Origin: Escherichia coli
GTDB taxonomy: Bacteria; Pseudomonadota; Gammaproteobacteria; Enterobacterales; Enterobacteriaceae
Reading direction: 5' to 3' (one strand)
Assembly (NCBI RefSeq): GCF_016903815.1
Contig: NZ_CP069973.1
Length of the DNA stretch: 64,000 nt
In this document: positions 50,001 to 53,000 of the stretch, piece after piece
Numbering within the stretch: position 1 is the stretch's first letter
Layout: every line of letters begins with the position of its first letter
Made by a program: the position numbers

Positions 50001-53000
50001 TATCAATGCCGTGGAAAATAGTGGCAATTTTGCCGCGAATGACACCCAGTTCGCGTAGTTTTGCTGCGGTTACCCCCGCCGGGCCAAAATGAGCGATGAA
50101 CACATCGGCGCGAAACGGTGTTGCGACCTGGCCGCAAATGGCAGACAAAATCAGGTTCCGCGACTCGGCACCATAGCGTTTGAGGTTGAGCGCCTGCCAG
50201 GTATTTTTACGATGAATGCCGCGCAAGGTCTGACTGGCGCGGTGGCGCAGCTTCGCCACTTTGCCCGTAGGTTCGTCCTGTAACCATCGGGTTCTGGCGG
50301 CAAGGTTGTATTTCGTCCATGCCGCGTGGGTGTTTTGTGTGTCGCCTTTTTGCAGCGCGACAATCTCCACCTCAAAGCCCATATCAATAAACGCGGTAAT
50401 TTGGTTGAGGACGAAGGTTTCCGACGACAGCGGAAATTTCAGTAAAAAGAAGCCAACCTTCATTTCGCCTCCCCAATGCGTTCCAGTACGGACTGCACCA
50501 TCTGCATTCCTGTCTGACGCTCACGACTGACGGCTTCGCTAAGTCGTGCGTTCAGCGCCGGAAGCTGGCCTAAGGTATCCGCAACCATCGCTTGCAGGCT
50601 GCCGTCCAGTAAATGACGGATATCAATCGCCATCTCCGGTAGTCCCAACTGCTGCATAATCCCGGCGGATTTATGTTCATAGTTGATGGCAATCGCCGGA
50701 GTAGCAAAGTTCATTGAGATAATGGCGGAGTGCAGGCGCGTACCGACGGTGAGTTCACAGGCCCCCAGAATTTTGCCCATTTCCAGATCGTTGAGTTCAT
50801 CCATCACTACGTGATAACGGGCAGGATCGCTGATGTGCTGGCGTAGGTTGAGCGCCACCATGCGGTCGTCTTTGTTATAGCTGTCGATGCCCGTACAGGT
50901 GGATAGCGCAATCACCTGATACCCTTCGTCGAGAATGCGATTGACCACCCCGGCAAAGGCTTTTTCATACGCTTGTTGAGTGGTGCCGAGACGTTTGTCG
51001 AACGGTGCCAGTTCGCGCAGGGTAATTGCCACCGTTTTCTGTTGTGCGGCAACGTCCAGCCAGTGTTGGACGGCATAGCTGGCGGTGAAATCTTCTGTGT
51101 GGTGATCGACCAGCCACGCGGTATCGACGCCATCTTCCACTTTTGCAGTGGTGATATTGCTGCGTTTCATCAGTTCGAGACTGACCGATTCGCGCAGGAT
51201 CAGCGCGTTACAGTGACCAAAAACGTAGTTCGCCAGTTGGTTAAATTGCTCATCCTGGAAGGGACCGACGCTGTGACCAATCATAAACAGCGGCTTTTTC
51301 GCCATAAATGTGCAAAGCGCATGTTCAAACTGCGGCACGCCGTAGAGATCGACAAAAAACGATCCGCCGACCTGAATAATGGCGTCGTAACCTGACAGCA
51401 GGCGCACGAAGTCGGTGAATCCCTGGGCGATGGCGATATTACGCAGCTTGCCAGTGTCAGTGACGCGTGAGAGCAATACCTGGTGTTGATAGCGGCGACG
51501 GAGGACTTTTTTAACGCGCCCGACAACGCCCGCCGCGCTGTTGTGTTGTTTCATTTGCAGGAACAGCGGATCGCCCATTACCGGGCGGTTGAGCAGCCAG
51601 GAAGAACTGACCGGATAGCGGCTCATCACGTCCACTTCGGCTTGTGGATTGAGGATGTTGATGGCATCAAGTAAGCCGCGCAAGATGGCGCTGTCGCCAC
51701 GATTGCCGCAAGTGTGGTTGCCCAGAATAAGTAATTTCATTTTTTCCTCATAAATTTGATGCCAGGTGAGGCTGCGTTTGTTTTGTTCGTTGCCGCTTTT
51801 TGCCTGATGCGACGCTGACGCGTCTTATCAGGCCTACAAGACCCGAGCACAGAACCGTAGGCCGGATAAGGCGTTCACGCCGCATCCGGCATTCAGTGCC
51901 TGATGCGACGCTGACGCGTCTTATCAGGCCTACAGGTCCCGAGCACAGAACCGTAGGATGGATAAGGCGTTTTACGCCGCATCCGGCAACCGTTGTCGGA
52001 ACCGAAAACAGCAACTCACCCCGCCCGTAAAAGCATTTTCATTTTTTCGCTGCGACAAAACTGACGCTTCACTTCCACCACCAGCGGATGGCGCGACAGC
52101 ACAATCATCACCACAAACGCCAGCACGCCCGCGGCTATTTGCACCGCCAGCAGCATCCCCAGCGCCAGTTGCCCTTTCAGCACAATGCCCAGCGCATAAC
52201 TAACCACCAGCGTCGGCAGCGAGAGGTAAAACGGCAGCCACAAACTCAGGATGTACTGGCGATAACTGGAACCAAGAACCGGTTTAATCATCACGAAGTA
52301 ACTCAGAATGGTGTTGATAATCTGCACCAGCAGGAAACCGAGCGTGACGCCGATTGCGCCCGCCATCTGCCCACCAATAACAATCGCCGGAATAAACAGA
52401 AAGGTTTTGAATACGTTGAATTTAAAGCTGATGTCGACCCGCGCTTTCGCCATCAGCAGCGAACCAATCGGGTTACCCACGGAGCGCAGCAGACCCACAA
52501 TACACAGCAATTGCAGCACCGGAATAATGCTGTTCCACTTTTCGCCGAATACCAGCGGTACGAAGTTATTCGACACCACCATCAGCCCCAGCAGCGCCGG
52601 AAAGTTGATAATCCCCACTACCGACAGCAGCTTGTAGAAGTTAACACGCAGCTTTTCGGTATCGTCCTGAATTTTGGCGAATGCCGGAAACAACACGCGG
52701 GTGATGATGGGGTTCAGCTTCATCGGTGGCACAACGGCCACGTTGTACGCCAGGTTGTACCCCCCTGCCACGCTCGCGCCGAGAATACGCGCCAGCACCA
52801 GCGTTGAAAGGTTGGTATTGAGATAGTTGATGATGCTGTCCGCCGTCAGCCAGGCACCAAAGCGTAAGTTCGGTGCCACCGACGCCAGCGAGAAATGCAG
52901 ACCGGGGCGATAAATTTTGCGACCAAAGTAGCCAAACAGCAGCGTTCTTACCGCACTATTGACCAGATAACCGAGGATCGCGGTCATCGCCAGCGGCCAG

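What the first reader, a model, noticed from the sequence alone, without database searches (positions are those of the whole stretch)
51800..52000. Tandem REP/BIME elements inside the colanic acid operon
Seen in sequence: two near-identical REP copies between wcaK and wzxC, and another between cpsG and cpsB at about 56485-56585. Established knowledge: REP elements can stabilise upstream mRNA and modulate differential expression within operons. Inference: they may set the relative levels of the flippase and sugar-nucleotide genes.
Basis: partly seen in the sequence, partly recalled or inferred. Interest (0 to 1): 0.15.

Follow-up and report, generated by a model that had tools for sequence, protein, structure and literature searches.

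The report
Ordinary BIME-2 repeats in colanic operon
The repeats are real but ordinary: standard E. coli REP/BIME palindromic repeats sit in two gene gaps of the colanic acid operon, one nearly identical in K-12, their copy number varies between strains, and most related genera lack them.

Summary
The window is E. coli and matches strain 7/2 at 100% over every stretch compared.

- **Site 1, wzxC|wcaK gap (51801-51988):** it holds four REPs, not two. They form two tandem 96-nt BIME-2 units, each one y and one z2 REP in opposite orientation.
- **K-12 comparison for site 1:** MG1655 has the same 275-nt gap with 2 base differences.
- **Site 2, cpsB|cpsG gap (56485-56586):** it holds z2, y and a 12-nt z2 stump next to the cpsB stop codon. 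K-12 lacks this 88-nt unit.

Both sites vary in copy number among 5,426 complete E. coli genomes: 0 to 5 units at site 1 and 0 to 2 at site 2. In 77 Enterobacteriaceae species the wzxC|wcaK gap has a median length of 29 nt. REP-like palindromes fill it in Escherichia and in relatives of Citrobacter amalonaticus, with single degenerate REP-like sequences in two more species. BoxC repeats fill it in at least nine others.

The likeliest mechanism is inferred from work on REP325 and was not tested here. The mRNA hairpins would act as a decay barrier and a partial Rho-dependent attenuator that favours upstream genes, and the DNA would bind gyrase. The REPs lie 28 and 21 nt from the stop codons, too far for REP-mediated translational repression.

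This is already known biology and of low interest.

The parts
51801..51988 (-). BIME-2 array in the wzxC|wcaK gap. It has two tandem 96-nt units and four REPs. On the mRNA (- strand) the order is y, z2, y, z2.
   Evidence: Tandem Repeats Finder gives period 96 and 1.9 copies. REPs were mapped. The Rfam naRNA4 model, which describes a y plus z2 pair, scores 79.7 bits against a gathering score of 59.5 at 51860-51930. The gap RNA folds at -135.7 kcal/mol, z = -9.3.
51953..51988 (-). y REP, first on the mRNA, starting 28 nt after the wzxC stop codon. It is slightly degenerate (CCATCCTAC tail).
   Evidence: Its own hairpin folds at -13.7 kcal/mol.
51897..51933 (-). z2 REP with GTAG at its 5' end on the - strand.
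   Evidence: Exact match to the z2 pattern used. Hairpin -21.9 kcal/mol. It can instead pair with the next y REP in a -50.1 kcal/mol duplex.
51857..51891 (-). y REP.
   Evidence: Hairpin -21.3 kcal/mol.
51801..51837 (-). z2 REP, last on the mRNA, ending 60 nt before the wcaK start codon.
   Evidence: Exact match. Hairpin -21.9 kcal/mol.
56485..56586 (-). BIME in the cpsB|cpsG gap: one 88-nt unit plus a stump. The parts are z2 56485-56521, y 56533-56567 and a truncated z2 at 56575-56586, one base from the cpsB stop codon.
   Evidence: The gap RNA folds at -74.1 kcal/mol, z = -5.0. K-12 lacks the 88-nt unit.
56400..56449 (-). algC RNA motif (Rfam RF02929) in the cpsG leader, immediately downstream of the BIME on the mRNA. 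It is a neighbour, not part of the repeat.
   Evidence: 78.2 bits against a gathering score of 33.8. It is kept in all six alleles compared.
54919..54952 (-). BoxC (also called PIT or TMECO) palindromic motif in the cpsG|wcaJ gap. It is a third repeat element in the operon and was not in the finding.
   Evidence: Zero-mismatch match to the published consensus (consensus from PMC4666352). Sequence.

Best explanation
These are standard E. coli BIME-2 elements, that is, tandem pairs of y and z2 repetitive extragenic palindromes. They are non-coding, probably mobilised by the REP-associated transposase, and inserted in two intergenic gaps of the colanic acid (wca) operon.

Shown here: their identity, their anatomy, near-identity of site 1 with K-12, copy-number polymorphism, and absence from most related genera.

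Inferred mechanism: when the operon is transcribed from the wza promoter, each REP folds into a stable RNA hairpin (-14 to -22 kcal/mol each). The array then acts as a barrier to 3'-to-5' exonucleases and as a partial, partly Rho-dependent attenuator. That would favour the segment upstream of each array over the segment downstream, so ...wzxC over wcaKLM and ...cpsB over cpsG. The size of the effect would depend on strain and copy number. On the DNA, the y REPs are likely gyrase binding and cleavage sites. The elements are dispensable modulators, not a conserved part of operon design.
For: - **Identity.** y and z2 REPs alternate in orientation, carry GTAG/CTAC feet and are separated by short linkers. 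This fits the BIME-2 definition in PMC3333891. Independently, the Rfam naRNA4 model, built on a y plus z2 unit of REP325, scores 79.7 bits, above its gathering score.
- **A dispersed family.** The query matches a median of about 34 to 35 places per E. coli genome, an undercount because a reporting limit was reached.
- **K-12.** The wzxC|wcaK gap is the same 275 nt with 2 base differences.
- **Structure.** The gap RNA has z = -9.3 at site 1 and -5.0 at site 2 against shuffled sequence.
- **Mechanism by precedent.** REP325, a six-unit y/z2 array between two genes of one operon, stabilises the upstream mRNA and attenuates the downstream gene about 8 to 10-fold, partly through Rho. [quoted passage not shown] Gyrase cleavage sites are over-represented in BIME-2, mostly in y REPs.
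- **Dispensability.** Site 1 has 0, 1, 2, 3, 4 or 5 units in different E. coli genomes. Site 2 has 0, 1 or 2 units, plus an allele with no REP trace. In 77 species the gap has a median of 29 nt.
Against: - No expression data for this locus were available, so the effect on wca transcripts is extrapolated from other loci.
- A JUMPstart/ops element lies upstream of wza in the matching genome. If RfaH is recruited there, the Rho-dependent part of attenuation could be suppressed.
- The supplementary text of the gyrase mapping paper holds no entry naming wzxC, wcaK, cpsG or cpsB. That search was by gene name only.
- The wide range of copy numbers in natural isolates suggests any effect is small or nearly neutral.
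Confidence: 0.7

Rival explanations
1. The arrays are selfish or neutral repeats with no measurable effect on wca expression. They persist only because these gaps tolerate insertions and because unit number drifts by slippage, or by recombination catalysed by the REP-associated transposase.
For: - Copy number ranges from 0 to 5 at site 1 and 0 to 2 at site 2.
- 49 of 77 species have a gap of 40 nt or less.
- The K-12 allele at site 2 differs by exactly one 88-nt unit bounded by the direct repeat CCTGATGCGACG. Both edges are C|T dinucleotides like the cleavage sites of the REP-associated transposase (site rules).
- Variable numbers of tandem BIMEs between strains are a known property of the family.
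Against: Strong hairpins in a transcribed operon usually have some effect on decay or read-through. REP-separated tandem gene pairs are upstream-biased on average, and deleting REP325 changes both neighbouring genes.
Confidence: 0.25
2. The REPs lower translation of the upstream gene (wzxC or cpsB) by stalling terminating ribosomes, which leads to mRNA cleavage and tmRNA tagging.
For: This mechanism is described for REPs close to stop codons (summarised in PMC12306157).
Against: The mechanism requires the REP to start fewer than 16 nt after the stop codon. Here the first REP starts 28 nt after the wzxC stop and 21 nt after the cpsB stop. Only a 12-nt z2 stump, which cannot fold into a REP hairpin on its own, lies next to the cpsB stop.
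Confidence: 0.03
3. The gaps hold an internal promoter or an intrinsic terminator, and the palindromes are incidental to it.
For: The gaps are unusually long for this operon (275 and 192 nt).
Against: Consensus scans found no sigma-70-like promoter and no hairpin-plus-U-run terminator on either strand at either site. The alleles without units in O55:H7 and K-12 show that the extra length is the repeat itself.
Confidence: 0.02

Closest known systems
The BIME-2 array in the wzxC|wcaK gap of E. coli K-12 MG1655 (NC_000913.3 positions 2118405-2118679)
   Same: Same locus, same 275-nt gap, same four REPs in the same order, with 2 base differences.
   Different: Essentially nothing at site 1. At the cpsB|cpsG site K-12 keeps only the 12-nt z2 stump and lacks the 88-nt unit present in the window.
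REP325, the six-unit y/z2 array between yjdM and yjdN (source of naRNA4, Rfam RF02564)
   Same: The same y plus z2 unit architecture sits between two co-oriented genes of one operon. The Rfam model built on it scores above its gathering score here. It is the best-studied model for the inferred terminator-stabiliser action.
   Different: There are two units here against six. The hit above the gathering score is on the + strand, antisense to the operon, and the sense-strand hit scores 55.4 bits, below it. The proposed role of naRNA4 in nucleoid condensation is disputed by the 2026 preprint and is not claimed here.
BoxC (PIT, TMECO) intergenic palindromes
   Same: This other GC-rich intergenic repeat family occupies the same wzxC|wcaK gap in E. 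coli B and in at least 9 other species. It also occupies the cpsG|wcaJ gap of this window.
   Different: The sequence family is unrelated: CCCTCNCCC, 3-6 nt, GGGNGAGGG, 3 nt, GGGNGAGGG. No promoter or terminator activity was found for it in earlier work cited there.

Membership tests
BIME-2 (REP family of E. coli) | Built from y and z2 REPs, not z1. | tested here: met
   Both z2 copies at site 1 match the z2 pattern with no mismatch, and the y copies match with 0 to 4 differences. Those patterns came from my memory of the published consensus. Independent support comes from the Rfam naRNA4 model (y plus z2), which scores 79.7 bits against a gathering score of 59.5.
BIME-2 (REP family of E. coli) | Each REP is an imperfect palindrome of 30 to 40 nt with a conserved GTAG at its foot and a mismatch in the stem. 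| tested here: met
   The REPs are 35 to 37 nt, each has a GTAG or CTAC foot, and the predicted hairpins have internal mismatches.
BIME-2 (REP family of E. coli) | REP and inverted REP alternate and are separated by short linkers, without the long L linker and IHF site of BIME-1. | tested here: met
   Orientation alternates, and the linkers are 19 nt between feet and 5 nt (CTGAA) between heads. I did not run an explicit scan for the IHF consensus, but the linkers are too short for the L motif.
BIME-2 (REP family of E. coli) | Occurs as tandem copies whose number varies between strains at a given locus. | tested here: met
   Units number 0 to 5 at site 1 and 0 to 2 at site 2. This property is stated.
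BIME-2 (REP family of E. coli) | Many dispersed copies in the genome. | tested here: met
   A median of about 34 to 35 matching places per genome, an undercount because the limit on reported pieces was reached.
BIME-2 (REP family of E. coli) | Bound and cleaved by DNA gyrase in vivo. | not testable with these tools
   Known for a subset of BIME-2 elements. The supplement of that paper had no entry under these gene names.
REPs that repress translation of the upstream gene | The REP starts no more than 15 nt after the stop codon. | tested here: not met
   The distances are 28 nt after wzxC and 21 nt after cpsB. The rule is quoted.
Intrinsic (Rho-independent) terminator | A GC-rich hairpin followed by a run of U. 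| tested here: not met
   The scan found none at either site on either strand.
naRNA4 (Rfam RF02564) as a functional nucleoid-associated RNA | A discrete 77-nt RNA with y and z2 hairpins that binds HU and condenses DNA. | not testable with these tools
   Sequence and structure match above the gathering score only on the + strand, antisense to the operon. The match reflects shared BIME-2 ancestry. The nucleoid role is disputed.

The most novel reading that the evidence does not exclude
The wzxC|wcaK junction has been filled by unrelated palindromic repeat families in different lineages. BIME fills it in Escherichia and in relatives of Citrobacter amalonaticus. BoxC fills it in E. coli B and in at least 9 other species. 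Within E. coli the BIME ranges from 0 to 5 units. That pattern could mean selection for a structured RNA 'punctuation mark' at this junction. Its strength, set by copy number, would tune the late genes wcaK, wcaL and wcaM, and so pyruvylation and completion of the repeat unit, relative to the rest of the pathway. Natural copy-number variation would then be an adaptive dial on colanic acid composition or yield.
Probability: 0.1. Interest if true: 0.35.

Novelty: already known. Interest (0 to 1): 0.08.

Why it matters
It matters little. REP/BIME elements are the most abundant non-coding repeats of E. coli, and the main array is nearly identical in K-12, so nothing new is revealed about the family. 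The comparative picture has modest practical value. The wca operon of this strain carries three palindromic repeat insertions that differ in number from K-12, and such differences could change the relative expression of wca genes between strains without any change in coding sequence or promoter. The natural series of 0 to 5 units at one junction would be a convenient test bed for the terminator-stabiliser model recently proposed for REPs.

Tried and rejected
- **Papers not held.** The original description of the K-12 colanic acid cluster (requested under a PMC id recalled from memory, PMC178271) and the paper on REPs regulating translation (PMC4427526, also from memory) are not in the library under those ids. 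The 15-nt rule is therefore cited second-hand from PMC12306157.
- **No operon-specific literature.** Searches for papers linking the wca operon with REPs found nothing specific. The RepRanger paper and the 2026 REP preprint do not mention wzxC, wcaK or cpsG.
- **No official REP number.** The copy of NC_000913.3 held here carries no REP features, neither at this locus nor in a second stretch checked for comparison. I could not confirm the database REP number for the K-12 element.
- **Copy number cannot be counted from coverage.** BLAST joins pieces that reuse one genomic unit, so one-unit genomes appear 99% covered. Flank pieces are also lost when the limit of 40 pieces per record is reached. 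Copy-number frequencies therefore rest on matched lengths in a 60-row evenly spaced sample plus 12 fetched loci.
- **Coding potential.** An 88-codon TTG open reading frame runs through the whole site 1 gap on the operon strand. I rejected it as mechanical, because unit lengths alternate between 96 and 97 nt in other strains, which breaks the frame.
- **Other readings rejected.** Translational repression fails on distance. An internal promoter or intrinsic terminator fails on the scans.

Full report
**Source and gene context.** A 1,001-nt query around the finding matches E. coli strain 7/2 (NZ_CP023820.1, human faeces, O102-type O-antigen genes) at 100% identity. It matches K-12 MG1655 at 97.9% over its full length. 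Three shorter queries from the operon also match strain 7/2 at 100%. The annotation of strain 7/2 and the ORF list agree on the gene order. All genes are on the - strand: wcaM, wcaL, wcaK (50460-51740), wzxC (52016-53494), wcaJ, cpsG, cpsB (56588-58024), wcaI, gmm, fcl, gmd and upstream wca genes. The mRNA is the - strand.

- Tandem Repeats Finder reports one strong array in the whole window, at 51801-51988, with period 96, 1.9 copies, 93% matches and score 334.
- The repeat finder reports two 75-nt copies at 95% identity, 96 nt apart.
- A 17-nt REP tail pattern (CGYCTTATCMGGCCTAC, up to 3 mismatches) matches six times against 0.33 expected from shuffles.
- A 13-nt REP head pattern matches 20 times against 5.8 expected. 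The matches with 0 or 1 mismatch are concentrated in the same two sites.

**Anatomy of site 1.** Each 96-nt unit contains two different REPs in opposite orientation, so the gap holds four REPs: z2 51801-51837, y 51857-51891, z2 51897-51933 and y 51953-51988.
- On the mRNA the order is y, a 19-nt linker, z2, the linker CTGAA, y, a 19-nt linker, z2.
- Every REP has the GTAG or CTAC foot.
- This matches the published definition of BIME-2: y plus z2, short linkers, tandem copies (PMC3333891).
- The y and z2 patterns I scanned with came from memory. Independent support comes from the Rfam naRNA4 model, which was built on a y plus z2 unit of REP325. It scores 79.7 bits at 51860-51930, above its gathering score of 59.5 (the nature of naRNA4 is).

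**Anatomy of site 2.** The cpsB|cpsG gap holds z2 56485-56521, y 56533-56567 and a 12-nt z2 stump (CCTGATGCGACG, 56575-56586) one base from the cpsB stop codon. The unit period here is 88 nt.

**Comparison with K-12.**
- At wzxC|wcaK, MG1655 has the same 275-nt gap with two base differences, both in y REP tails. The main element of the finding is therefore the known K-12 element.
- At cpsB|cpsG, K-12 has a 104-nt gap against 192 nt here. It lacks exactly one 88-nt unit and keeps only the z2 stump.
- That indel is bounded by the direct repeat CCTGATGCGACG. Both edges are C|T dinucleotides, as at the in vitro cleavage sites of the REP-associated transposase (TGCC|TGAT).
- Loss or gain of a unit by slippage between the repeats, or by that enzyme, would each explain the difference. 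I cannot tell which.

**Variation within E. coli, site 1.** Fetched loci have wzxC|wcaK gaps of:

| Gap (nt) | Content | Example |
|---|---|---|
| 70 | 0 units | O55:H7 DEC5D |
| 145 | y plus a truncated z2 | strain 6817 |
| 179 | 1 unit | O157:H7 |
| 275 | 2 units | K-12 and the window |
| 372 | 3 units | SWYH.B349aT |
| 468 | 4 units | two strains |
| 563-574 | 5 units | three strains |

E. coli B has an unrelated 161-nt gap that contains a BoxC motif.

In a 60-row evenly spaced sample of 5,473 matching records:
- 14 rows have the two-unit length.
- 9 rows have the one-unit length.
- 17 rows belong to a class in which all six fetched examples have 3 to 5 units.
- 1 row is the partial allele of strain 6817.
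- 5 rows have the zero-unit length.
- In 13 rows the best match lies at another REP site in the genome.
- The last row is a plasmid.

These proportions are rough.

**Variation within E. coli, site 2.** In 3,019 of 5,426 genomes one place covers at least 80% of the query that spans the unit. Fetched alleles have 0 units plus the stump (K-12, 104 nt), 1 unit (window and O157:H7, 192 nt), 2 units (ECCNB20-2 and O169:H41, 280 nt) and a 101-nt allele with no REP trace (GN4741).

**Other Enterobacteriaceae.** A scan of one genome per species with WcaK returned 80 loci. In 77 of them both wzxC and wcaK aligned well enough to measure the gap.
- The median gap is 29 nt. 49 gaps are 40 nt or shorter and contain little beyond the ribosome binding site. 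17 gaps are 100 nt or longer.
- Gaps classified as REP-like occur only in E. coli E69 (1 unit), E. whittamii (a lone z2) and four relatives of Citrobacter amalonaticus (L011-L014; three carry a REP pair, the fourth scored two REP-core hits).
- Single degenerate REP-like sequences also appear in Salmonella enterica subsp. arizonae and one more Citrobacter.
- Nine species have a BoxC motif by a strict pattern, and several more have partial BoxC-like sequence (consensus).
- The BIME is therefore a lineage-restricted insertion in a gap that is normally tight. The junction has been filled repeatedly by unrelated palindromic repeats.

**RNA structure and signals.**
- The site 1 gap folds as RNA at -135.7 kcal/mol, against -90.9 ± 4.8 for shuffles (z = -9.3). 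The site 2 gap folds at -74.1 kcal/mol (z = -5.0).
- Single REP hairpins range from -13.7 to -21.9 kcal/mol. The middle z2 and y can instead pair with each other at -50.1 kcal/mol.
- No sigma-70-like promoter and no hairpin-plus-U-run terminator was found on either strand at either site.
- The first REP starts 28 nt after the wzxC stop codon and 21 nt after the cpsB stop codon. That is outside the 15-nt limit reported for REP-mediated translational repression (rule quoted).
- ORFs inside the gap are read-throughs of the repeat and are not credible genes.

**Most likely mechanism (inferred, not shown here).**
- The closest experimental model is REP325, a six-unit y/z2 array between two genes of one operon. 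A 2026 preprint reports that it stabilises the upstream mRNA and attenuates the downstream gene about 8 to 10-fold, partly through Rho.
- Older work summarised supports an exonuclease barrier and Rho-dependent attenuation. Gyrase cleavage is enriched in BIME-2, mainly in y REPs.
- By analogy, the arrays here should favour the mRNA segment upstream of each array, to a degree that depends on unit number.
- A JUMPstart/ops element lies upstream of wza in the matching genome, outside the window. If it recruits RfaH, the Rho-dependent part may be damped.
- The wide natural variation in copy number, and the absence of any element in most genera, argue that the effect is modest and not part of conserved operon design.

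**Comparison with known systems and novelty.** Site 1 is the K-12 element with two base changes. Site 2 is a further copy of the same family at a locus where K-12 keeps only a stump. All sequence-level features that define BIME-2 were tested and met. The features that define translational-repressor REPs and intrinsic terminators were tested and not met. This is already known biology.

**The only mildly new observations are comparative.**
- Copy number at one junction forms a series from 0 to 5.
- The same junction is occupied by BIME or BoxC in different lineages.
- All three long intergenic gaps of this strain's wca operon carry a palindromic repeat.

**Verdict.** The feature is real and was correctly recognised as REP/BIME, but the count was wrong: four REPs in two BIME-2 units, not two REPs. 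The functional inference is reasonable by precedent but untested, and the comparative data weaken it as a general property of the operon. Interest is low.

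Noticed in passing
window 56400-56449 (- strand): An algC RNA motif (Rfam RF02929, 78.2 bits against a gathering score of 33.8) lies in the cpsG leader, between the BIME and the cpsG start codon. It is kept in all six E. coli alleles compared, whatever the REP content. Its function is not established, as far as I know.
   Followed up: partly
window 54891-55024, motif at 54919-54952: The cpsG|wcaJ gap is 134 nt here against 54 nt in K-12. It holds a zero-mismatch BoxC (PIT, TMECO) motif, where K-12 has only a short simple hairpin. The full 134-nt allele is present in 508 of 5,426 E. coli genomes.
   Followed up: partly
L008 542-702 (E. coli B) and loci L017, L019, L021, L040, L052, L066, L067, L083, L085: In E. 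coli B and in at least nine other Enterobacteriaceae species the wzxC|wcaK gap is filled by BoxC-type repeats instead of REPs. The same junction has therefore been colonised by unrelated palindromic repeat families.
   Followed up: partly
L007 452-521 (O55:H7), L010 (E. whittamii); window about 51780-51800 and 51989-52015: In the unit-free O55:H7 allele and the E. whittamii allele, the sequences flanking the REP insertion point are complementary: GTTGTTGTTTTCG ... CGAAAACAACAAC in E. whittamii, with one mismatch in O55:H7. The BIME thus appears to sit in the loop of an older hairpin, and the predicted fold of the window's gap pairs these flanks. I could not resolve whether this reflects a target preference or is part of the element.
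   Followed up: no
window 45263-45301 (- strand); L002 39527-39565: JUMPstart/ops elements (Rfam RF01707) occur downstream of galF at the head of the O-antigen genes (58.9 bits) and, in the matching genome, upstream of wza outside the window (57.3 bits).
   Followed up: partly
window 46685-47680 (- strand): A 331-aa gene lies between wcaM and galF and is absent from this position in K-12. In strain 7/2 it is annotated as the undecaprenyl-diphospho-N-acetylglucosamine 4-epimerase.
   Followed up: no
window about 32389-32847 (by offset from L002 990-1448): An IS200C-family transposase gene lies between ugd and gnd in the annotation of strain 7/2. The position was mapped to the window by offset only and was not checked in the window sequence.
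   Followed up: no
window 28398-28480: A degenerate REP-like palindrome (GCGGATGCGATATTGTTGTCGCATCCGGC) is followed by a terminator-like hairpin with a run of T.
   Followed up: no
window 51748-52014 (- strand): An 88-codon TTG open reading frame runs through the whole BIME array on the operon strand. It is almost certainly not a gene, because unit lengths of 96 and 97 nt alternate in other strains and break the frame.
   Followed up: partly
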